A DNA stretch of 63,486 bases from a virus (taxonomy: Duplodnaviria > Caudoviricetes), in IMG/VR virus record IMGVR_UViG_3300036833_000428, positions 1 to 63,486 of that record; one strand, given 5' to 3'. This document shows, in pieces, positions 21,990-62,532 of this stretch (position 1 is its first letter; every line of letters starts with the position of its first letter). A program made the position numbers and the translations under genes. The notes below the pieces were generated by a model. The model was not told the origin of the DNA and ran no database searches. It saw nothing but the letters and a program-made list of their open reading frames with translations.

Positions 21990-22380
21990 CCTGCAGCTCT
22001 ATCAGGGCGACGACTGGGCCGCCACCGTCACCGTCTTGAACCAGGACATGACGCCGGCGAACATTACCGGCTACACCGCGCAGTCTCAGATCCGCCGCAA
22101 TGTGGCCGATCAGGATCCGATAGTCGCGGCGGAACTCCAGGCTACCGTCCAGGCGCCCAACTCGGTGCTCCTCTTTCTTTCGCATGCACAGACGAGCCTG
22201 CTCTCCGGCCAATATCAGTGGGATCTCCAGCTCACGTCCCCCGCGAACGATATCGTAACCATCCTGGCCGGCGCCGTGAACGTGACCCAGGAAGTGACGC
22301 GGGAAACCAGTGCGCTCGCCGCGCAAACGCAGGTGCTCGATGGCAGACAGCCAGTTTACAGCCACCCTCCCAGCCGATAA
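21970..22380 (+). CDS. Ig-like fibre-attachment (BppU N-terminal-like) protein
   Basis: [10 protein letters not shown]...[11 protein letters not shown]...YQWDLQL...[14 protein letters not shown]. Confidence 0.7.
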
Positions 22381-25300
22381 CCTCATCGGGGTCCTTCAGC
22401 CGCAGAGTGCGCTCAGTGCCACCTGGGGCGATGGCCGGCCCACACCGGGACCGCCCGGACCCGACGGCCCACCTGGCCCGACGGGACCCGTGGGTCCCAC
22501 GGGACCGCCGGGTGCTGCCGGTCCGGTAGGACCGGAAGGCGTCCCAGGACCTACTGGACCTGTCGGCGCAACCGGAGCCACCGGCGCAACCGGCCCCCCG
22601 GGACCCACCGGCGCACCCGGATCACAAGGAACTGTCGGACCGCCCGGCGCCACCGGAGCCCCGGGACCGATCGGGCCGACCGGTCCGCAGGGAGCGCAAG
22701 GAACCATCGGCCCTACCGGAGCCACCGGACCGGCCGGTCCTACCGGAGCCGCCGGCGCAGCTGGAGCAACAGGGGCCGCGGGACCTACCGGACCGACCGG
22801 CCCCGCCGGCGCTACTGGCGCAACGGGCACCACCGGCACCGCTGGAGCCGACGGAGCTCCCGGACCGCCGGGCGTGCAGGGCCCCCTCGGCCCACCCGGC
22901 CCGGCGGGCCCCATCGGACCAACCGGCCCGACCGGCCCCCAGGGGCCGATCGGCGATGGCATCGTCTTTAAGGGCACCGTAGCCGATCAAGCCAGCCTGC
23001 CCGCCACCGGCAACACGGTCAACGATGCCTACACCACAACAAACCCCGCCGGCCATATGTGGGTCTGGAACGGCACCACCTGGGTCGACATCGGCAACAT
23101 GCAGGGACCACCCGGTCCCGCCGGAAGCGATCCCACCACCACCCTCGGCGATTTGATTGTACGCGGCGCGACCGCGGCGCAACGCCTGGCTGTAGGCACG
23201 AACAATTTCGTGCTCACCGCCGATTCGACGCAGACCCTGGGAGTGGCGTGGAAAGCCGTGCCGGCGACTTCCCAGACACCCTGGATCAGCAATATCGATG
23301 GCGCCAACTACAACCTCTCGAATGTCGGGGCGCTCGGCACCAGTTCCCTCACCATGCAGGGGACTGTGACTGCCAACGACAGCGTGAACGGCCAAGCCGG
23401 CCTGACTCTCGACCACAGCGCCATCATCCGCTGGTTTCTCGGCAAAAATGCCACCACCGAAGGCGGCTCAAGTGCCGGGTCGGATTTCGAGATCCGGCGT
23501 TACGACAATACCGGCACCTTGCTCGGCACTCCAGTCACGATCCTGCGCACGAGCGGCTTCATCGGGCTCAATCAGCCCTCCCCGGCCTATCGCCTGGATG
23601 TGGCGGGCGACGTCAATGTCACTGGCGTTTTCCGCATGAACGGCACTCCGCTCAACTTCTTCGGCGACCCGACCACCACCAAGGGCGACCTCATCGTGCA
23701 CGGTGCCACCACCACGCGCCTGGCCGTCGGCAGCGATGGCCAGACATTGCTTGCGGATTCGAGCCAAACGCTGGGAGTGCGCTGGGGGAGTCTCGTTACC
23801 GGCGTCTCGAGCTTTAATACGCGCACCGGCGCCGTCCTGCCGGCCGTGGGCGACTACACCGCGGCGCAGATAACTAATGCGGTATCGACCGCCAGCACCT
23901 ACGCCGACCCGGCCTGGATCACATCCCTCGCCTGGTCGAAGATCACCGGCGCACCGGCCACCGTGACGAGCGTCTTTGCGCGAAGCGGTGCGGTCGTCGC
24001 GGCCACTGGTGATTACACGGCGGCGCAGGTCAATAATGCGGTCGATACCACGCAGACCTACGCGAACCCGGCCTGGATCACATCCCTTGCCTGGAGCAAG
24101 ATCACCGGAGCCCCGGCTATTGTCAACACCGTATTCGGCAGAAGCGGCGCGGTGGTCGCGGCCAGCGGCGACTACACCGCAGCGCAGATCACCAACGCCG
24201 TCGACATCACGCAAGCCTACGCCAATCCACCCTGGATCACGTCCCTGGCCTATAGCAAGATCACCGGGGCACCGGGGCAGACACCCTGGTTGAGCGATAT
24301 CAACGCAGCCGGATTCCGGCTGCTAAGCACGGGCAACGCGGGCATCGGAACGGCCAACCCGCTATACAGGCTGGACGTCCGCACTCCCGGCTCTACTGCC
24401 ACTCAGATGCACATCGCCTCGACCGATACGGACGCGGGCGGATATCTGACGAGTGCTGGGGATAACGGTGTTAATTTCTCGGCAGGCGGCGCGTACAACG
24501 GCACAACCTGGATTGCCAAGAGCACAACGGCCACTAATATCGCTCAATACGGCGGTTTTATTCAATTCTTTTCTGATTCCTCTTTGACTGTGGGCGGCGC
24601 CTATACACTGACAAGCCGCATGATCATCGCACCGAGCGGCCAAGTGGGGATCGGGACGGCGAACCCGCTGTACAGGCTCGACGTCCGCACCCCCGGAACC
24701 ACTCAGATGCATATCGCCCAGACGGATACGGACGCTGGCGGGTATCTGACGAGTGTTGGTGATAATCATTGCGTATTGTCTGCCGGTGTTGCATATAACG
24801 GGACTACCTGGGTTGCCAAGAGTACGGTTGCCAGTTATGTCGGACTGTTCAATGGCGGGGTTCAATTTGCGATAGATACGGGGCTGACTGTGGGCAGTGG
24901 CTATACCCCCACGCAGCGTGTGGTTATCGACAATGGGGGCCAGGTGGGCATCGGGACGGTTAGTCCGTTGTACAGGCTGGATGTGCGTACCCCCGGCGTT
25001 ACTGCCGCTCAGGTGCATATCGCGAGCACGGATACGGACGCGGGGTTTTATTTGCAGACTAATGGTGATAGCACAGGGAATCTCTCGGCGGGAGAGGCTT
25101 ATAACGGCACGAACTGGATTGCCAAGTCGACGGCCGCCAGTTGTATCGTTCAAGGCGGCGCTTGGATTTATTTCAATACCGATTCAGGATTGACCCCAGG
25201 CAACGCCTTTACACCGACATCTCGTATGGTTATTTCGCCGTCGGGCTACGTGGGCATCGGGATAAACAATCCACTGAATCAGCTGTCCATAATTCCTGCC

Positions 25301-25882
25301 GCGAATGCGACTACAGCAGCAGGAGCAACTCAGTTTTCCATCGGAGAACCCACCAACAATAGCGCCTATCGATTGACTTTGGGATGTTTTTCGGACACTC
25401 AGATGAAAGCAGTGATTCAACATCAAGCCGGCACGCTAGCCTTAGGCGTACTCCTTTTGAATCCAAGCGGCGGTGCCGTGGGCATAGGGATTACAGCGCC
25501 AGGCTATCAATTGCAACTCGGCGCCGATTCCGCCGCGAAACCCGGCACGAACACATGGATAATCGTCTCAGATATCCGCACCAAGCGAAACGTGCGCGGT
25601 CTCGAAGGTGGACTGGAGATTGTCAACCAACTGGAGCCCATCGTGGCCGAGTACAACGGCAAGGCGCATACGCCCGACGGCGGTCGCGTAGTCTCTTTTG
25701 AGCCGAAGCAGTTACGCGAGATACTGCCCCATGCAGTTTCGAGCACCATGGGTAAGCTGGACCCGGATGACTCCGAAGAGACAGAGATTCTAGGCGTCAA
25801 CACGCACGAAATCCTGTTTCATTTGATCCTGGCGGTGCAGCAGCTCAACCGTCACCTCCAAGCCTTGGAAGGGAGAAAATAA
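22340..25882 (+). CDS. Fibre protein 1: collagen region, repeat modules, C-terminal peptidase S74-type chaperone
   Basis: Long Gly-X-Y run, repeated GIGT beta modules, SDIRTKRNV and a final coiled coil. Confidence 0.9.
22448..22960 (+). repeat. Collagen-like Gly-X-Y coding repeat
   Basis: Continuous GPT/GAT/GPP triplets. Confidence 0.9.
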
Positions 25883-33691: not shown

Positions 33692-36600
33692 CTAGCTCCT
33701 GAGCTCCAGCTTCTTCAGCCGCTCGTCGATCTGCTTAAATGCGTTCACCGCAAGCCAAGTGAAGGAGCTGGGATTGAGGGTCACGATCTCGGTTGGTTCA
33801 TCGTCGATTTCCCCCTTCACGCGATGGGTCCATTCGGGAATAATTCTTTCGGCGTCCTGACCGGCAACCCCCACCCCGCGGCGGCCCGCCTCCGTATTAA
33901 ACTTGCCGTTCCACTCAAAAGCGATCGGATCCAGTTGAGTCAGAACCTCGAGGCCATCCGTAAAGGGCCGGATGTTTTCCTTGAGCCGGATATCGCAGGT
34001 GGTGTCCCAGTTCAGCTCGCCCTTGTTATAGGCCGCGCCGGCATTCACATAAATGGCATAACCGGGAAAATGTCCGGGAGTGCCGACCGACAAGCCACCG
34101 CCCTGTACGAACTGCGCCATGGGCTGAACCTGGTTGTTATAAAGAATAATGTCCCCGCTCGTGTTCACCCCGATCCAGTTAAAATTGGCGCTCGAGTTGG
34201 GGCGCAGCGCCAACGAGTAGTTTTCGTTCGCGTTCGTGATCGTCACGCGGCCGGTAAAGTTGGCGCCCGCGGCCGAGATGCTGCTCGAGACGGAAAGCGT
34301 GGAGAGCGTCAGATTGCCGTTTACCTGCACGTCATTTGAAAAGGTCGCGGGACTCGCATAAATAGTCAAAGGCAGGTAGGCAGTGAGAGCATTGTTGATG
34401 GAATAAATGGCGGATCCACTACCAACCGGGCCTATGAAGACATTCGCATTCGCCTGCGTGCGACAGGTAAGCGGCCAGCCGGGAGCACCGGACCAGCCGC
34501 CACAGGCGATCCAGCCATTGACTACCAGATGATGGCTGCCGGCCGTGAAATAGCCCATCTGCGCGGCGGAGTAATCCCAGAAGATCGTATTGCCAGCGGT
34601 GTCCGCCCCTATGAAGTTGGGCGATTGAGCCGTGCTATAAGCGAAAGCAATCGAGTACTGATCATTGCGACCCATAAACAAAGATCGACCCAAAACGGAA
34701 AGATAATAACCACCCGGAGCCTGCCCGATCCCCAGCTGATTGGTCTGCGTAAAAGAGGAGTTGATCAACAGCGGCTCAAGAGTCGTAAGAGCATTGTCTA
34801 AACATTGAATATCCGAACCGTTACTCCAGGCACCCACCAGAAAATTGCAATTGGATTGCGTCCGAATATGCAGCGGGTTTGCGGCACCGGCCAGCCCAAT
34901 GCCCACAAAGCCATTCGACTCGATATCGATCGCCAGGATTGTTCCGGCCGACGTATAAAAACGCTGCCCCGACGCCGCTTCGATATGCAGATAGTTGCTT
35001 TCGATGCCCAGTCCATAAAAAGAACCAGGTCCTCCATCCCAAACGGCCAGCTTACGATTGTTAATCGAAGAACCAAATGACAGCGGAAAATTGGGCGTCG
35101 AAGTGCCGATACCCACATTGCCCCCCGCTGAAATAACCATGGCTGCAATTATTCCCGAACCGTCGGAGTGCAAGCCTAGGAACTGAAAGCCACCGCCAGT
35201 CGCCACATCGGGACCATATGACAGGAACCGCGAATTACCGCTATAGAAATCCAGCCCGAGTTCATTGGGGGCCTGGACAGTGGTTGGCCCCTGAATCTTA
35301 ACGGCTCCGTTTACAGTCAGCGTTTCGGTAGGCGATGTCGTCCCGATTCCCACCCTGCCACCCGAAGCCGCGTTCAGATAGATCGCGCTGCCTTCGATCC
35401 GAACCGGCTGATAGACGCTTGCCGTCCGATCGTAAGCTTGAATCACACCCCATGATGCCGATGGGTTGTAGTACACCTCCAAACCAGCTCCGCTCGCAGG
35501 ATTTGCGTTGAGGTTGTCCACCCGCATCAGGCCGTTCACATTGAGATAACAGGTGGGAGTCGAAGTGTTGATCCCTACGTACCCGGAATTGTTGATCACC
35601 ATGCGCGGAGCAGGCCAACTCATCACTTGTCCGACCGTAAAGCCGGAGGCCACGTAAAACGACAAACCAACAGTGGCCTGCAGATGTAGAATCGCGGCCT
35701 GAGTGTCCAGCGCAATCCACTGGTTATTCACCCGGTCAGCGCCCAAAGCCACCACCGCCTGCCCAGGAGCAAAGCCCGTAATCGTGACTCCGGTTTGCCC
35801 CGGCGACAGAATCTTGAACTGGCTCGTCGTGCCGGGACCAGTTAGCGTCAGCTGACGGTCCGGCCAAGCACCAATCCCGAGATAGCCCTGATTGTCCAGA
35901 AACAACTGGTTGACCGGCCCGGTCGAATTATCCGGCCGCGTCGAGAACAACAGCGCCCCGCCACGATTATTGGCCGCCGAACCCATGGTCTGAACATCGA
36001 TATGCGCAAGGATGTTATTGGCGGCCGTGTTATTGGCATCTACCCAGACGATCGATCCCGTCTCGATATTGTTCGCATCGGCCGTCGTCTGAACCAGCTC
36101 CAGGATCCCGGCATCGGAAGCGCCCTTGATCGTGACGTAGCTGCGACCCGCCGTGAGCGGCTTTTCGAGCGGCCCCGCAGCATTCACCCCGAGAAAGCCC
36201 GCACTCTGGAGCGAATAGCCGGCCGCATTGATATTCATGGTCCAAGGAGTGGGCGGCACGGGAGCAGCCCAAGCAGTCTGGTTAGCCTGCGCCGTCAATA
36301 CATCGCCAGCCGCCCCCTTCGGTAATACCGTCCAGAAACCAGGCGTGGGCTGAGTGTCATAGACCAGCAGATCCCCGGTCGTGGAACCGGCCGGCAAGCT
36401 GCCGCCTCCGCCACTGCCACCAATGCCCTGAATGACAACATCCACCGCATCGGAGCCCGTATTGTCCGTAATGGTCAGAGTAATGTTGGGCCCCTCAATG
36501 AAGTTCAAGTTCGCGCGCGTCCCTTCGAGCGTGCTGTTGAACGTGACGTTGACTTTCTGAATGTTGGAATTGTCGACCACTGAAAGCGTTCGGTCCGCTG

Positions 36601-37315
36601 AAAGATCACCCCCGCCGGCGAGCCCATACCCGGCATTGATCAAGCGGGTGGTCGGCACGTAACCCGCAATGGTTGAAGTGCCGGAAACCGTGATGCCCGC
36701 GGAGAAAGTCGCCAGCGCCGCGAAAGTCTTGCTGCCACCGAAAGTCTGCACCCCGGTGGTCACCACACCACGTGCCGTCCCGGAGGCATCGGGAATATTC
36801 AACTGCAGGCTCGTACCCAGCGTGGCCGGCGAACTGCTGACACTCAAATCCGCCGCCGGGTTGGCCGTAAGAGTGAGGCCAATCGTGTTCGGCGAAACGT
36901 TGATCATGGTCACGTACATCGGCACCCAGTGACTACCGTTCCAACCGAGAAACTGGCCCTGCGTGGCGCCGGCGCTGGTCAGCTGCAGGGCCGAGATCAT
37001 TACACTCGGCGTGGCCGGGAACCCGACGCGGATCTGACCCAGATTCACCGAGGGCAGGTTCGGAATGATCCAGAACTCGCTCCATAGCCCGCCCTCTTCG
37101 AGCTCATAAAGCGCTGTGTAATAGACCCCATAGGGCTGGGCATTGACGTTCGAGTAGATCGTGAGATTCAACGCCCCGTTGACAATCGCGAAGGCCTGCT
37201 GGCTGGCCGCCACCGCCACCCCATTCGCCTGAAATGCAGGGCACGAGACCACCACCTGGCCATTCGCCAGGCGGCCGTCTTCGTAAGCCACCGTACCCTG
37301 AACCGTGGTCATCAT
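33692..37315 (-). CDS. Fibre protein 2 with C-terminal peptidase S74-type chaperone
   Basis: ATGA-coupled start at 37315; repeated VGIGT modules; CDIRLKENI...AQD...coiled coil. Confidence 0.88.
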   Translation of the reverse strand: MMTTVQGTVAYEDGRLANGQVVVSCPAFQANGVAVAASQQAFAIVNGALNLTIYSNVNAQPYGVYYTALYELEEGGLWSEFWIIPNLPSVNLGQIRVGFPATPSVMISALQLTSAGATQGQFLGWNGSHWVPMYVTMINVSPNTIGLTLTANPAADLSVSSSPATLGTSLQLNIPDASGTARGVVTTGVQTFGGSKTFAALATFSAGITVSGTSTIAGYVPTTRLINAGYGLAGGGDLSADRTLSVVDNSNIQKVNVTFNSTLEGTRANLNFIEGPNITLTITDNTGSDAVDVVIQGIGGSGGGGSLPAGSTTGDLLVYDTQPTPGFWTVLPKGAAGDVLTAQANQTAWAAPVPPTPWTMNINAAGYSLQSAGFLGVNAAGPLEKPLTAGRSYVTIKGASDAGILELVQTTADANNIETGSIVWVDANNTAANNILAHIDVQTMGSAANNRGGALLFSTRPDNSTGPVNQLFLDNQGYLGIGAWPDRQLTLTGPGTTSQFKILSPGQTGVTITGFAPGQAVVALGADRVNNQWIALDTQAAILHLQATVGLSFYVASGFTVGQVMSWPAPRMVINNSGYVGINTSTPTCYLNVNGLMRVDNLNANPASGAGLEVYYNPSASWGVIQAYDRTASVYQPVRIEGSAIYLNAASGGRVGIGTTSPTETLTVNGAVKIQGPTTVQAPNELGLDFYSGNSRFLSYGPDVATGGGFQFLGLHSDGSGIIAAMVISAGGNVGIGTSTPNFPLSFGSSINNRKLAVWDGGPGSFYGLGIESNYLHIEAASGQRFYTSAGTILAIDIESNGFVGIGLAGAANPLHIRTQSNCNFLVGAWSNGSDIQCLDNALTTLEPLLINSSFTQTNQLGIGQAPGGYYLSVLGRSLFMGRNDQYSIAFAYSTAQSPNFIGADTAGNTIFWDYSAAQMGYFTAGSHHLVVNGWIACGGWSGAPGWPLTCRTQANANVFIGPVGSGSAIYSINNALTAYLPLTIYASPATFSNDVQVNGNLTLSTLSVSSSISAAGANFTGRVTITNANENYSLALRPNSSANFNWIGVNTSGDIILYNNQVQPMAQFVQGGGLSVGTPGHFPGYAIYVNAGAAYNKGELNWDTTCDIRLKENIRPFTDGLEVLTQLDPIAFEWNGKFNTEAGRRGVGVAGQDAERIIPEWTHRVKGEIDDEPTEIVTLNPSSFTWLAVNAFKQIDERLKKLELRS

Positions 37316-38913
37316 AAGGCGTTTTGGCTGATGTTCCAGGTCACCCCGGTCTGATTGCCGCCCGAAAGCGGCAGCGAGGCGTAGAAATTGGAACCGTTGT
37401 AATAAAACTGAACGACCAAGTAGCCCCCGCCCGAGCCCAGCGAATGAAAATACATCCGGCAGCAATTGGCAGGGACATTGTCGGCCGGATTGGTGTAAAT
37501 GGCCGATTCGTAAACAATCGAGGCGCCCTGAACATAAGAGCCGCCCTGGTTCTGAGCGATGTGCAGCGTCGCGAGCGGTGCGCCCCCAATAACCGGATGG
37601 CCCAGCAGCACCCTCCCCTGCGAGTTGTAATTGACGAAGCCGCCGGTGCCCGCGAAGAACGGATTGCCGCTACCGTCAATCGAAGCGATCGTCTGGCCCG
37701 CGGAATTCTGCCAGACCTGCACATAGTTCTGACTCGGAGCACCGCGCACGACCAGGGTGTATTGGTTGGGGTTGGAACCGAGCACCGCCAGGCGCGCGCC
37801 AATATCCGCGTACCCCCCCACCGTCACGTTGCCGCTCGCCCGGAAAAAACTGATCGTCTGAAAGATCCCCCCGCCGCTATCGTTATAAGCCAAGAGCAGC
37901 AGGTTGCTGCCGGCATTCCCACCCGACTCCGCTTCGGCCGGCGTATAGAGATTCCAGCGCGCCGACCCGTTCGTCGCCCAAATGAACTGGCGCGACTGCG
38001 TGGTGATCTGCGCGGTGTCGATCCAGATCTCCGGGTAGAGCACATTCATGCCGATATGCAAGGTGTGACCGGGAACGCCACCCAGGCCGAGACCAACGCC
38101 CGGATTAATGTAAACATTCGATTGCGCCAGCACGTTCGACGCATTAGAGAAGTAAACTCCATAAGCCGCCGAACCGCCGATGGAGTTCCCCACCGCCAGA
38201 CCTACGCTCGTCCAGGCGAGCGCCGGCCCCGCCACCACGCCCAGAACCTGGCCCACCGCGCCGATCGGCAACGGCACAAGCGAACCCGTGAGATGCTGAT
38301 AGTAGAGGTCGTAAGCCGCGCTCGCATAGCCCGGAACACGAATTTCCAGATAGGCCACGGTAACAATACTGGCGCTGGTAAAAGTAACATTGGCCTGGAA
38401 CGTCACCGGCTGCGTGAAAGTAGTGGCCTGCGCAAAGGAGACCGCCCCGCTCACACTCAGACTCCCCAGCACCTGAACGTTACCGAACTGCGGGTTGTAA
38501 AGCGCACCATCCACCCGGGCATTCGCACCCGCCCCATCGCAGTAAATCATCGCGGAATAGCCCGGATTGAGAGTGAAGACGCCACCACTGCCCTGCTGGA
38601 AGGTGATCGGAAAACCACCTGCAGTCGCGTTGGTCATGATGTAGAGCTTCTCGGCCGTCGAGGGCGTGATATTGACTGTACCGGCCTGTGAGAGAGTGCC
38701 AGTCCAGATAATAACCTTATTGCGGCCCTCGGCCGTCGCCCCTTGAGCGGTGTTGAGCGTATAAGAAGACGCCGACAGAGCTACGTGCTCGTTGCCGTCC
38801 GTCGCCATGTCGATCGCGTCATACGAGGTATTGGCCGTCGTGCCCCACACTCCCGCCTGCTCGCCCGTGGCGGGCTTTTCGAGACCAAGATTCTGCGTGT
38901 AAGTCGACGGCAC
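37312..38913 (-). CDS. Fibre/spike protein 3
   Basis: PSTYTQNLGLEKPATGEQAGVWGTTAN tail-attachment N-terminus with a beta-rich body. Confidence 0.8.
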   Translation of the reverse strand: MPSTYTQNLGLEKPATGEQAGVWGTTANTSYDAIDMATDGNEHVALSASSYTLNTAQGATAEGRNKVIIWTGTLSQAGTVNITPSTAEKLYIMTNATAGGFPITFQQGSGGVFTLNPGYSAMIYCDGAGANARVDGALYNPQFGNVQVLGSLSVSGAVSFAQATTFTQPVTFQANVTFTSASIVTVAYLEIRVPGYASAAYDLYYQHLTGSLVPLPIGAVGQVLGVVAGPALAWTSVGLAVGNSIGGSAAYGVYFSNASNVLAQSNVYINPGVGLGLGGVPGHTLHIGMNVLYPEIWIDTAQITTQSRQFIWATNGSARWNLYTPAEAESGGNAGSNLLLLAYNDSGGGIFQTISFFRASGNVTVGGYADIGARLAVLGSNPNQYTLVVRGAPSQNYVQVWQNSAGQTIASIDGSGNPFFAGTGGFVNYNSQGRVLLGHPVIGGAPLATLHIAQNQGGSYVQGASIVYESAIYTNPADNVPANCCRMYFHSLGSGGGYLVVQFYYNGSNFYASLPLSGGNQTGVTWNISQNAL

Positions 38914-61648: not shown

Positions 61649-61909
61649 ATGAGCAAGAGTCGCGTATACCTGAGCAACGAACGCCACCGGCTTCGCCATG
61701 TTGAGCTGCACCGTGCGCTTGACGAGTTAGCTGCAGACTGGGCGTTGCACAACAGTCGGCCTACGCGTGATGGCAACATCAAACTATTCAGCAACACGAC
61801 CATCATGGAACTGATGGAGTGGTCGCATCAGCAGACCGTGGATCCGGCCATTCCCTACGTCCTTACACGAAAGGCCAAGAAGCGAATGAAGAGTAGAGAG
61901 GGCAGCTGA
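61649..61909 (+). CDS. Hypothetical protein
   Basis: HVELHRALDELAADW...TIMELMEWSHQQT. Confidence 0.7.
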   Translation: MSKSRVYLSNERHRLRHVELHRALDELAADWALHNSRPTRDGNIKLFSNTTIMELMEWSHQQTVDPAIPYVLTRKAKKRMKSREGS

Positions 61910-62256
61910 TGCGTTTCGGCGAGGACGAGAACGGGGCGTACAAGCTATTGCCCGATGGCCGCGTGCTGCGCGCCAAGCGGCAGATCTTTAACGCGATTCT
62001 GACGCTCTCAAAGTCGCGCGCAGAAATGACGTGGCGGGAGGGCTGGTGATATTCCAGCTTCGATGCCGCCGTGCGCGACATGGTGCTGTGGGAACCGGGC
62101 GAAACACTGATTTGCGCGATCTGCGAGCGCGAGCGCGGCGGCGATGATCCGCCCGGCCCGTGGTTCCGTCACCGGCCCAGCCACCGGCGGCGCATCGTGA
62201 TCTTTCATCGCAATCCGCTGTTGCCGATGGGACATCTGGAGTACATATGGCCGTGA
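61909..62256 (+). CDS. 115-aa protein with an in-frame UGA at codon 47 (candidate selenoprotein or readthrough; otherwise a pseudogene)
   Basis: TGATG-coupled start; GGC TGG TGA TAT at 62041-62052; the same frame stays open for 68 more sense codons. Confidence 0.65.
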
Positions 62257-62301
62257 GCGAGCTAACGAAGCTAGAGCCAAAAGGCTTAGGGAGTGGAAGT
62301 G

Positions 62302-62532
62302 ATGGCGAACTGGCCGGGTCTGGTCAAGAGCGACGATCCTGATTTCAACGATCCGCGATTTCAGCGGCGCGTGGAGGCCCTCTGGCGTCCGATTCCGATA
62401 GTCGAGAATGTACATGAAGCGAGACTCGAATGCGGCCACGAGCCGCTGCTCCTGGGCGATAATCCGCCGCGAGTCGGGACGAAGTGCTTCTGCGGCGACT
62501 GCCGCGATTTGCAAAAGGAGGTCAAGCCCTAA
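62302..62532 (+). CDS. Small zinc-ribbon protein
   Basis: LECGH...CGDC. Confidence 0.6.
   Translation: MANWPGLVKSDDPDFNDPRFQRRVEALWRPIPIVENVHEARLECGHEPLLLGDNPPRVGTKCFCGDCRDLQKEVKP

What the first reader, a model, noticed from the sequence alone, without database searches (positions are those of the whole stretch)
61909..62256. Candidate phage selenoprotein: in-frame UGA in W-x-Y followed by a SECIS-like hairpin
Seen: a TGATG-coupled ATG opens MRFGEDENGAYKLLPDGRVL...MTWREGW, then TGA (62047-62049). The same frame continues YSSFDAAVRDMVLWEPG...CAIC...PPGPWFRHRPSHRRR...EYIWP. The downstream half has no convincing RBS, and UGA is a normal stop elsewhere in this genome. Just 3' of the UGA the RNA can pair UUCC/GGAA and CAGC/GCUG, with an upper GCCGUG/CAUGGU stem. 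Its CGCGA loop starts about 25 nt after the UGA with G second, loosely fitting the bacterial SECIS model. From recall, not searched: the two halves resemble one phage family (LPDGR...WCY...A...W...P.GW.RH...RRR) with Cys at this position, the classic Sec/Cys signature. Inference: the phage borrows host SelABCD to make a selenoprotein, or uses UGA readthrough as a selenium- or host-dependent switch.
Basis: partly seen in the sequence, partly recalled or inferred. Interest (0 to 1): 0.85.

Follow-up and report, generated by a model that had tools for sequence, protein, structure and literature searches.

The report
Candidate selenoprotein gene in a phage
A small phage gene carries a stop codon in its middle that is kept in dozens of related phages, sits where other relatives have cysteine, and is followed by a conserved RNA hairpin like the bacterial selenocysteine signal, so it is probably a phage-encoded selenoprotein, which has not been described for phages.

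Summary
The in-frame TGA (62047-62049) is real and is not an error or a pseudogene. The same TGG-TGA-TAY is present in 24 of 24 distinct relatives, with a median of 57% amino-acid identity. Both halves are conserved, and AlphaFold2 folds them as one domain with the TGA inside a beta-strand.

A smaller hairpin that overlaps it is conserved: 62063-62081, loop CGUGC, with G25 U26 counted from the U of UGA.

In the wider family, 75 distinct viral loci have 39 TGA, 1 TAG, 29 Cys and 6 other residues at this column. Of the stop-bearing loci, 37 of 40 carry a hairpin at the same place. Most of these have a GGUC loop, as in E. coli fdhF, and show strong compensatory changes. None of the 35 sense-codon loci has it.

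Best reading, at about 0.6: selenocysteine is inserted by the host's SelB.

Points against this reading:
- The nearest sense-codon relatives have W, Y, T or S, not Cys.
- One relative has TAG at the site.
- The host is unknown, and the phage carries no Sec genes.

The main rival is hairpin-stimulated Trp readthrough.

The parts
61649..61909 (+). Upstream 86-codon ORF. Its TGA stop overlaps the ATG of the recoded gene (TGATG), a translational-coupling arrangement.
   Evidence: no Pfam or PHROG match
61909..62256 (+). The whole recoded gene: 115 sense positions plus the terminal TGA, read through the internal TGA.
   Evidence: AlphaFold2 on 24 sequences gives pLDDT 89.1 and pTM 0.81, one compact fold.
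61909..62046 (+). N-terminal 46 codons (FG.DENG.YK.L.DGRVLRV..R.YNT.LTLS.S......W..GW).
   Evidence: Conserved in 23 relatives. Twelve separate 42-78 aa database ORFs end exactly here.
62047..62049 (+). In-frame TGA, codon 47; proposed Sec codon.
   Evidence: TGA in 24 of 24 distinct relatives. The column holds TGA or Cys in the wider family. It lies inside predicted strand 44-48.
62050..62253 (+). C-terminal 68 codons (Y....AAV.D...WEPG...C..C..ERGGDDPPGPW.RH.PS.RRR.PI......LGYLEY).
   Evidence: There are no indels between the TGA and WEPG in 23 relatives. Y48 is invariant, encoded by TAT in 10 and TAC in 13.
62063..62081 (+). Conserved RNA hairpin, positions 17-35 from the U of UGA: AUG(C)CGC [CGUGC] GCG(A)CAU, with one C.A mismatch. 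Proposed SECIS-like element.
   Evidence: Codons here show zero synonymous variation (GCC 23/23, GUG 23/23, NGC 23/23, GAC 21/23), against 0.3-0.7 elsewhere. On 28 sequences 81.7% of cells pair, and the covariation score is 0.238 against 0.112 +/- 0.020, reached by 0 of 500 shuffles. Energy is -4.6 kcal/mol.
62070..62074 (+). Apical loop C24 G25 U26 G27 C28. G25 U26 (62071-62072) are the first two bases of the invariant Val55 codon, which ORF finders list as a GTG start.
   Evidence: In E. coli fdhF, fdnG and fdoG the corresponding G23 U24 sit 2 nt closer to the UGA.
62254..62256 (+). Terminal TGA stop of the gene.
   Evidence: The terminal stop is TGA in 21 relatives, TAG in 2, and cut off in 1. 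TGA is therefore an ordinary stop in these genomes.

Best explanation
The gene 61909-62256 encodes one 115-residue single-domain protein. Its codon 47 (UGA) is redefined as selenocysteine. Proposed mechanism: when the ribosome reaches the UGA, the hairpin 13 nt downstream (62063-62081, loop CGUGC presenting G25 U26) binds the host's SelB carrying Sec-tRNA(Sec). SelB delivers it to the A site in competition with RF2.

Shown here:
- The UGA and both halves of the gene are under long-term purifying selection as one protein.
- The UGA column alternates with Cys in sister clades.
- A hairpin at a fixed distance co-occurs with the stop and evolves by compensatory changes.
- Its loop matches the E. 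coli SECIS loops (GGUC/GUC) in the commonest form.

Inferred: The phage has no tRNA, SelA or SelB of its own. The function of the protein is unknown. The conserved Cys/Sec next to two aromatic residues suggests a nucleophilic or redox site.
For: 1. Conserved stop. TGA is present in 24 of 24 distinct relatives of the window's clade. Pairwise identity is 42-92%, median 57%. Twelve further N-half ORFs in a 1.84-billion-protein library end at the same column.

2. One protein. There are no indels around the stop. Y48 is invariant with synonymous TAT/TAC. AlphaFold2 gives pLDDT 89.1 and pTM 0.81, with residue 47 inside strand 44-48.

3. Sec/Cys pattern. Among 75 distinct viral loci of the wider family the column is TGA in 39, TAG in 1, Cys in 29 and other residues in 6. 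On the tree, Cys clades are sister to the TGA clades.

4. Hairpin linked to the stop. 37 of 40 stop-bearing loci have a hairpin at positions 17-34/35, against 0 of 35 sense-codon loci (Fisher 3e-18, not corrected for phylogeny). The folding energy of nt 13-40 has a median of -12.2 against -6.6 kcal/mol at equal G+C (p 6e-7).

5. Covariation. For the GGUC type, the score is 0.516 against 0.197 +/- 0.023, and 59 cells changed on both sides against 22. No shuffle of 500 reaches either value, and 6 of 7 pairs are compensatory. For the window type, the score is 0.238 against 0.112 +/- 0.020, reached by 0 of 500 shuffles.

6. Likeness to known SECIS. E. coli fdhF, read from NC_000913.3, has stem GCA/UGC and loop G22 G23 U24 C25. 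fdnG and fdoG have G23 U24 C25. The phage loop is G24 G25 U26 C27. A review passage (PMC8659212) gives G23, U24 and U17 as the conserved nucleotides, with U17 and G23 as the SelB contacts.

7. Loss of the stop goes with loss of the element. Sense-codon relatives P0002 (W), P0003 (Y), P0018 (T) and the five T/S outgroup proteins all lack Val55 (= G25 U26). L057 (His) has no hairpin.

8. Host consistency. The only cultured phages with a family member, Caulobacter jumbo phages, have Cys. Caulobacter vibrioides shows no SelA or SelB in the control panel.
Against: - Within the window's own clade the sense-codon variants are W, Y and T, and the nearest outgroup has T/S. None has Cys.
- Across 38 spanning database proteins the column is variable: C 9, T 7, E 7, W 3, D 3, S 2 and seven singletons, read by eye. 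The residue is therefore not universally essential.
- One relative (L049) has TAG with an intact GGUC hairpin, which a UCA-anticodon tRNA(Sec) should not read. The only tRNA in its record is tRNA-Trp(CCA).
- The host is unknown. No tRNA, tRNA-Sec, SelA or SelB is in the window. No tRNA-Sec was found in 10 related virus records.
- The window's hairpin is weak (-4.6 kcal/mol, 3+3 bp with a C.A mismatch), and the window alone folds no better than shuffles.
- The loop lies 2 nt further from the UGA than in E. coli, and I saw no bulged U.
- No Rfam SECIS model matches, although the E. coli control scores 87.1 bits.
- SECIS-like structures become commoner by chance as G+C rises (PMC12013277 passage).
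- The hairpin criterion of at least 5 contiguous pairs was set after seeing the data.
Confidence: 0.6

Rival explanations
1. Programmed UGA readthrough by a standard near-cognate tRNA (Trp). The downstream hairpin acts as a stimulator. The gene yields mostly the 46-residue product and a fixed fraction of the 115-residue protein with Trp47.
For: - The closest sense-codon lineage has Trp (TGG, one transition from TGA): P0002, P0074 and P0075, from two independent sources and 4 contigs.
- Its near relative P0040 stops at the same column.
- The column tolerates many residues.
- The P-site codon is always UGG.
- Two related phages carry a tRNA-Trp(CCA); in L049's record it is the only tRNA.
Against: - The base after the stop is U in 24 of 24. 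According to the abstract of PMC5289835, +4U lowers read-through in E. coli.
- A generic stimulatory hairpin would not need an invariant loop. The loop is GGUC in 31 of 32 four-nt-loop hairpins and CGUGN in 28 of 28.
- The loop matches the E. coli SECIS loops.
- The stop alternates with Cys, not Trp, between clades.
- The L049-record tRNA-Trp looks canonical, with G24 and a 5-bp anticodon stem.
Confidence: 0.2
2. A split gene. Translation terminates at the UGA and re-initiates at the invariant GUG (62071) 21 nt downstream. This gives two polypeptides (46 aa and 61 aa) that may assemble.
For: - GTG at 62071 is invariant in 23 of 23.
- Gene callers in public data start several homologs there or at a nearby ATG: P0005, P0011, P0015, P0016 and the MEAAV... 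forms.
- TGA is in any case the usual stop in these genomes (21 of 23 terminal stops). That it is always TGA is therefore weak evidence on its own.
Against: - The seven codons between the TGA and the GUG stay in frame without indels or stops in 23 relatives.
- Tyr48 is invariant with synonymous TAT/TAC changes, and E52, A53 and A54 are conserved.
- These codons form the end of a strand and the start of helix 51-60 in a confident single-domain model.
- There is no Shine-Dalgarno sequence before the GUG.
- In the commoner hairpin type the codon is GUC, which is not a start codon.
- The invariance of the GU is explained by the loop.
Confidence: 0.08
3. The peptidyl-tRNA(Trp) hops from UGG to the overlapping near-match UGA (+3 bypass). 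The resulting protein lacks residue 47.
For: UGG-UGA is invariant. tRNA hopping over stops is known in E. coli; this is recalled and was not looked up.
Against: - In the wider family the preceding codon is TAC (Tyr) in L071, L090, L096, L102 and L107, and the stop and hairpin are still kept.
- It does not explain the conserved loop or the Cys alternation.
Confidence: 0.03
4. An ordinary premature stop: a pseudogene or an attenuator, with only the 46-residue product made. Alternatively, a lineage with UGA reassigned genome-wide.
For: Under table 11 the frame simply ends at 62049.
Against: - The downstream half is conserved as protein across relatives of 42-92% identity.
- The same gene ends in TGA in 21 of 23 relatives.
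- The window's large genes are intact under table 11.
- No other TGA-plus-hairpin with long open frames on both sides is in the window.
Confidence: 0.03

Closest known systems
Bacterial selenoprotein genes with an intragenic SECIS (E. coli fdhF, fdnG, fdoG)
   Same: - An in-frame UGA is followed after about 11-15 nt by a short stem-loop.
- The apical loop carries G-U at a fixed distance.
- The loop sequence GGUC of the commonest phage type is identical to that of fdhF, and all three E. coli genes share GUC.
- Cys-containing homologs exist.
- The stems evolve by compensatory change.
   Different: - The gene is carried by phages, in a protein family with no Pfam match and only one weak PHROG match and no fold match.
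- The loop lies 2 nt further from the UGA, and there is no evident bulged U.
- The window's own version has a 5-nt loop CGUGN instead of GGUC.
- There is no hit to Rfam SECIS_2 or SECIS_3, which the E. coli control hits.
- The Sec column is not universally Cys in homologs.
Selenoproteins of eukaryotic viruses (glutathione peroxidases of poxviruses)
   Same: A virus encodes a UGA-Sec protein and relies on host Sec machinery. This is recalled; I saw only the listing and the start of the abstract of PMC1802603 and the listing of PMC6769590.
   Different: Those are captured host enzymes with eukaryotic-type SECIS elements. Here the signal is of the bacterial type and the protein family is phage-specific.
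Read-through protein A1 of RNA phage Q-beta (UGA read as Trp)
   Same: It is a phage gene with a leaky UGA that gives a longer product (recalled, not looked up).
   Different: In Q-beta the stop ends a complete coat protein and the extension is an added domain. Here the stop is in the middle of one domain, alternates with Cys, and has a sequence-specific hairpin.
Stop-codon reassignment in phages (TGA=W or TAG=Q with suppressor tRNAs)
   Same: It gives in-frame stops in phage genes.
   Different: Here only one codon in one gene is affected. TGA also ends the same gene, and the window carries no tRNA.

Membership tests
Bacterial selenoprotein gene (UGA-Sec with bSECIS) | In-frame UGA conserved among orthologs, with conserved coding sequence on both sides | tested here: met
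   TGA in 24 of 24 distinct relatives. Both halves are conserved, and they fold as a single domain.
Bacterial selenoprotein gene (UGA-Sec with bSECIS) | Homologs with Cys aligned to the UGA (wider family) | tested here: met
   29 Cys against 39 TGA among 75 distinct viral loci. 9 Cys among 38 spanning database proteins. The criterion is as stated in passages of PMC12013277 and PMC9312934.
Bacterial selenoprotein gene (UGA-Sec with bSECIS) | Cys in the closest sense-codon relatives, and a Cys/Sec column that is conserved throughout | tested here: not met
   The nearest sense-codon relatives have W, Y, T or S, and the column is variable in distant members.
Bacterial selenoprotein gene (UGA-Sec with bSECIS) | Stem-loop just 3' of the UGA, with conserved G/U in the apical loop at a fixed distance | tested here: met
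   The hairpin spans positions 17-35 with G25 U26. It covaries and is present only with the stop. For comparison, E. coli has G23 U24.
Bacterial selenoprotein gene (UGA-Sec with bSECIS) | Host possesses selA, selB, selC and selD | not testable with these tools
   The host is unknown. The terminase is nearest to that of a Pelagibacter phage (46.7%) and the GP88-like protein to that of a Tunturiibacter phage (48.8%). There is no copy in 185,579 species genomes; the 1 hit was spurious. The phage itself lacks these genes.
Bacterial selenoprotein gene (UGA-Sec with bSECIS) | Selenium found in the protein (75Se labelling or mass spectrometry) | not testable with these tools
   This needs an experiment.
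Rfam SECIS_2 / SECIS_3 (RF01988, RF01989) | Score above the gathering cut-off of the covariance model | tested here: not met
   There is no SECIS hit in window 61800-62400 at E<=10, nor in L052, L056 or L068 at E<=1. E. coli fdhF scores 87.1 bits against a cut-off of 70. These models are narrow and gene-specific.
Programmed near-cognate stop-codon readthrough | A leaky stop context, and a sense homolog carrying the near-cognate residue | tested here: inconclusive
   +4 is U in 24 of 24, which lowers read-through in E. coli according to the abstract of PMC5289835. One Trp lineage exists.
Genome-wide UGA reassignment (tables 4 and 25) | TGA not used as a stop, and many genes with in-frame TGA | tested here: not met
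   TGA ends this same gene in 21 of 23 relatives. The large genes are intact under table 11. There is only one candidate site in the window.
Termination-reinitiation (split gene) | A restart codon near the stop, and no protein-level constraint between the stop and the restart | tested here: not met
   The GUG is present, but the seven codons between are conserved in frame and Tyr48 shows synonymous changes. In most of the wider family the codon is GUC.

The most novel reading that the evidence does not exclude
Soil phages encode a widespread, phage-specific selenoprotein family. It would be the first selenoproteins of viruses of bacteria. The phage carries only the UGA and a minimal SECIS, in two loop classes (GGUC and CGUGN), and depends wholly on the host's SelABCD. 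Production of the full protein would then report the host's selenium status and Sec competence. The TAG variant (L049) would hint at Sec decoding of a codon other than UGA in some hosts.
Probability: 0.55. Interest if true: 0.9.

Novelty: new variant of a known kind. Interest (0 to 1): 0.82.

Why it matters
Selenocysteine recoding is known in bacteria, archaea, eukaryotes and a few eukaryotic viruses. I found no report of it in phages. The phrases 'phage selenoprotein', 'phage-encoded selenoprotein' and 'selenoproteins in phages' occur in none of the papers held. A 2022 review of prokaryotic selenoproteins does not contain the words phage, virus or viral. Three further searches gave nothing relevant.

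If true:
- Gene callers systematically split these genes. Public databases hold the halves as separate 46-aa and 64-aa ORFs.
- Phage biology gains a dependence on host selenium metabolism that can be tested directly.
- The family offers a very small natural SECIS of about 19 nt in two variants. This would be useful for studying SelB recognition and for engineering Sec insertion.

If the rival is true instead, it would be a rare, deeply conserved, structure-stimulated stop-codon readthrough in dsDNA phages. That would also be unusual.

Tried and rejected
- **Protein families.** Pfam and PHROGs on the read-through protein, its halves and its neighbours gave nothing. On wider-family members the only hit was a weak phrog_24748 of unknown function.
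- **Cultured phages.** tblastn of the read-through protein against 50,697 phage records found no match.
- **Bacterial genomes.** The scan of species genomes gave one hit, and the metagenome scan one like it (L008, L030). Both turned out to be an out-of-frame stretch antisense to a PHP-type gene, so they are spurious.
- **Fold comparison.** Foldseek against the PDB gave no match at E<=0.001. VIA-align wide gave a best Z of 4.5, which is uninformative. The ESM Atlas returned only unnamed, mostly viral clusters at 0.89.
- **My earlier reading.** Through I favoured Trp readthrough at about 60%. I overturned this when the wider family showed the Cys/TGA alternation and the GGUC hairpin.
- **The 12-nt motif as a repeated DNA site.** There are 5 matches in the window against 4.5 expected, so I rejected this.
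- **Other same-frame ORF pairs or TGA-plus-hairpin sites in the window.** I found no other credible case.
- **Sense-codon subfamily in viral contigs.** The search returned only the known TGA loci, so no DNA of P0002, P0003 or P0018-P0024 could be examined. Loss of their hairpin is inferred from the protein sequence only.
- **Phage-encoded decoding factors.** There is no tRNA in the window or in 5 related records. There is no tRNA-Sec in 10 related records; the best 'tRNA-Sec' hit in G009 is tRNA-Ser(CGA).
- **Supplementary files of papers** were not seen.

Full report
**What is there.** The window is a complete 63,486-bp virus record with direct terminal repeats. It is a temperate tailed phage with a terminase, an integrase, tail-fibre proteins and SNF2 and UvrD helicases. 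In a run of small + strand genes near its right end, an ATG at 61909 overlaps the TGA stop of the upstream ORF. It opens 46 codons, then comes TGA (62047-62049), and the same frame stays open for 68 more codons to TGA 62254-62256.

**The stop is conserved, and the two halves are one protein.**
- A word-indexed protein search found two full-length relatives and 14 that cover only the C-half.
- DNA of relatives came from 7 viral contigs and 20 metagenome contigs. Every one has an in-frame stop at the same column.
- After merging duplicates there are 24 distinct versions, counting the window. All read GGS-TGG-TGA-TAY. The terminal stop is TGA in 21, TAG in 2 and cut off in 1.
- Pairwise identity among 23 of them is 42-92%, median 57% (253 pairs). 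I dropped L024, a truncated near-copy of L017.
- There are no indels between the TGA and the WEPG motif. Tyr48 is invariant, encoded by TAT in 10 and TAC in 13.
- AlphaFold2 on 24 sequences, with the TGA read as W only so that a sequence could be submitted, gives pLDDT 89.1 and pTM 0.81. Residue 47 lies inside strand 44-48 and helix 51-60 follows.
- A profile search of 1.84 billion representatives found 58 proteins. Twelve of them are N-half ORFs that end exactly at column 46.

Sequencing error, pseudogene and genome-wide UGA reassignment are therefore excluded.

**The RNA element.**
It pairs in 53.8% of cells, no better than shuffles or slid controls. The window alone folds no better than shuffles.
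- Synonymous variation drops to zero over four consecutive codons 18-33 nt after the TGA: GCC 23/23, GUG 23/23, NGC 23/23 and GAC 21/23. Conserved codons elsewhere show 0.3-0.7.
- These bases form CGC[CGUGN]GCG, extended by G-C and A-U pairs, at positions 17-35 counted from the U of UGA (62063-62081).
- On the 23 close relatives the core never varies, so covariation was not significant (96 of 500 shuffles reach the observed score).
- Adding five members of the wider family that carry the same loop makes it significant. 81.7% of cells pair (slid controls 30-50%). The covariation score is 0.238 against 0.112 +/- 0.020 (0 of 500 shuffles). Five of 8 pairs show compensatory changes.
- Two of those five (L038, L079) were found with a pattern that contained the motif. 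The other three came from a protein search.

**The wider family changed my reading.** Until I favoured Trp readthrough, because the two full-length relatives have W and Y at the site, and 38 spanning proteins show C 9, T 7, E 7, W 3, D 3, S 2 and seven singletons (read by eye).

A protein-based scan of viral contigs with the wider family then returned 98 relatives, of which 80 were kept. I located the column in 78 of them. Three were first misplaced by my regular expression and then corrected, and L115 and L116 could not be placed. Removing 3 duplicates leaves 75 distinct loci: TGA 39, TAG 1, Cys 29, Asp 3, and His, Glu and Tyr 1 each.

Hairpins among these 75 loci:
- Of the 40 stop-bearers, 33 have at least 5 contiguous pairs closing a 4-nt loop at positions 24-27. 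The loop is GGUC in 32 and UGUA in one.
- Four stop-bearers have the window's CGUGN type.
- Three have neither (L069, L112, and L089 only partly).
- None of the 35 sense-codon loci has either type (Fisher 3e-18, not corrected for phylogeny, criterion chosen after seeing the data).

A less post-hoc measure agrees. The folding energy of nt 13-40 has a median of -12.2 kcal/mol in stop-bearers against -6.6 in Cys-bearers, at G+C of 0.72 and 0.69 (p 6e-7).

The stems differ between loci and keep pairing through changes at third codon positions. Over all 40 stop-bearers the covariation score is 0.516 against 0.197 +/- 0.023, and 59 cells changed on both sides against 22. No shuffle of 500 reaches either value, and 6 of 7 pairs are compensatory.

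**Comparison with a real SECIS.** I read E. coli K-12 fdhF, fdnG and fdoG from NC_000913.3. fdhF has stem GCA/UGC and loop G22 G23 U24 C25. fdnG and fdoG have G23 U24 C25. The phage loop is G24 G25 U26 C27, the same tetraloop 2 nt further out. The window's loop keeps G25 U26. A review passage gives G23, U24 and the bulged U17 as the conserved nucleotides, with U17 and G23 as the SelB contacts (PMC8659212). G25 U26 are the first two bases of codon 55, which explains why Val55 is invariant only where the stop is present. By the same energy measure the window's clade (median -7.0 kcal/mol) is as stable as fdhF (-5.7).

**Phylogeny.**
- The window's clade (22 TGA rows) holds nested sense lineages: W (P0002 and two relatives), Y (P0003, sister of L019, support 95/90) and perhaps T (P0018, on a long branch). 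Its outgroup has T or S (the site column was not dropped in that tree).
- In a 105-row tree with the site dropped, the stops fall into this clade, a main clade of 37 stops plus one His, and a small group. Cys clades are sisters to them. Parsimony needs 8 changes, and well-supported branches force at least 2 (quick search, poorly resolved).
- All sense variants inside the TGA clades lack Val55 or the hairpin.

**Decoding machinery.** There is no tRNA, tRNA-Sec, SelA or SelB in the window. There are no tRNAs in 5 related records and no tRNA-Sec in 10 related records. Decoding must therefore be done by the host.

The host is unknown. The only cultured phages with a family member infect Caulobacter vibrioides, and they have Cys. 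That species shows no SelA or SelB in the 14-genome control panel. This is one consistent data point.

**Verdict.** A recoded UGA in a single-domain phage protein is very likely, at about 0.9. Selenocysteine is the best explanation, at about 0.6, because the family meets the standard in-silico criteria quoted in PMC12013277 and PMC9312934: Cys/TGA pairs with conserved flanks, plus a SECIS-like hairpin.

The main reservations are:
- the non-Cys residues in the nearest sense-codon relatives;
- the variable column in distant members;
- one TAG variant;
- the weak hairpin in the window itself;
- no Rfam SECIS hit;
- the untested host.

Literature searches found no phage selenoprotein. For each paper I saw only listings, abstracts or the cited passages.

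Noticed in passing
L049:1124-1174 (record G011, 63 kb): One wider-family member has TAG instead of TGA at the site. Its GGUC hairpin is intact (7 pairs) and its downstream frame is intact. The only tRNA in its record is a canonical-looking tRNA-Trp(CCA). TGA to TAG needs two changes, so a stop seems to have been kept.
   Followed up: partly
L112:1157-1207; tRNA cluster G009:C1:35600-39430 (L125, L135, L140): A 191-kb phage with terminal repeats carries 29 tRNA matches (RF00005). One is an odd 72-nt tRNA-Trp(CCA) whose anticodon ARAGORN places at position 30. Its family member has the TGA but no hairpin. A UGA-reading tRNA-Trp could be tested here (compare PMC13092985, of which I saw only the listing and the start of the abstract).
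   Followed up: partly
L136:1498-1571 (record G006, 236 kb, which holds L079/L043): ARAGORN calls a tRNA with anticodon CTA ('tRNA-Pyl'), that is, an amber-suppressor-like tRNA. It sits in a large phage contig that also carries a TGA-bearing family member with the window-type hairpin.
   Followed up: no
L046:1001-1252: A Cys-bearing locus placed next to the main TGA clade already has GGUC at the loop position, but no stem (0 pairs). It may be a pre-adapted state.
   Followed up: no
window 62249-62260: A one-mismatch copy of the 12-nt motif (GGCCGTGAGCGA) overlaps the gene's terminal TGA. It is probably chance, since the window has 5 matches against 4.5 expected.
   Followed up: no
window 62293-62532: The next small ORF (79 aa) is Cys-rich (ECGHEP...KCFCGDCRD) and has no Pfam or PHROG match. 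The neighbouring small genes are all uncharacterised.
   Followed up: no
window 22310-25882 and 33692-37465: A 1190-aa protein has collagen triple-helix repeats. A 1257-aa protein ends in a Peptidase_S74 intramolecular chaperone domain. Both are typical tail-fibre features.
   Followed up: no
These lower pairs are not kept in relatives (38-49% paired).
   Followed up: yes
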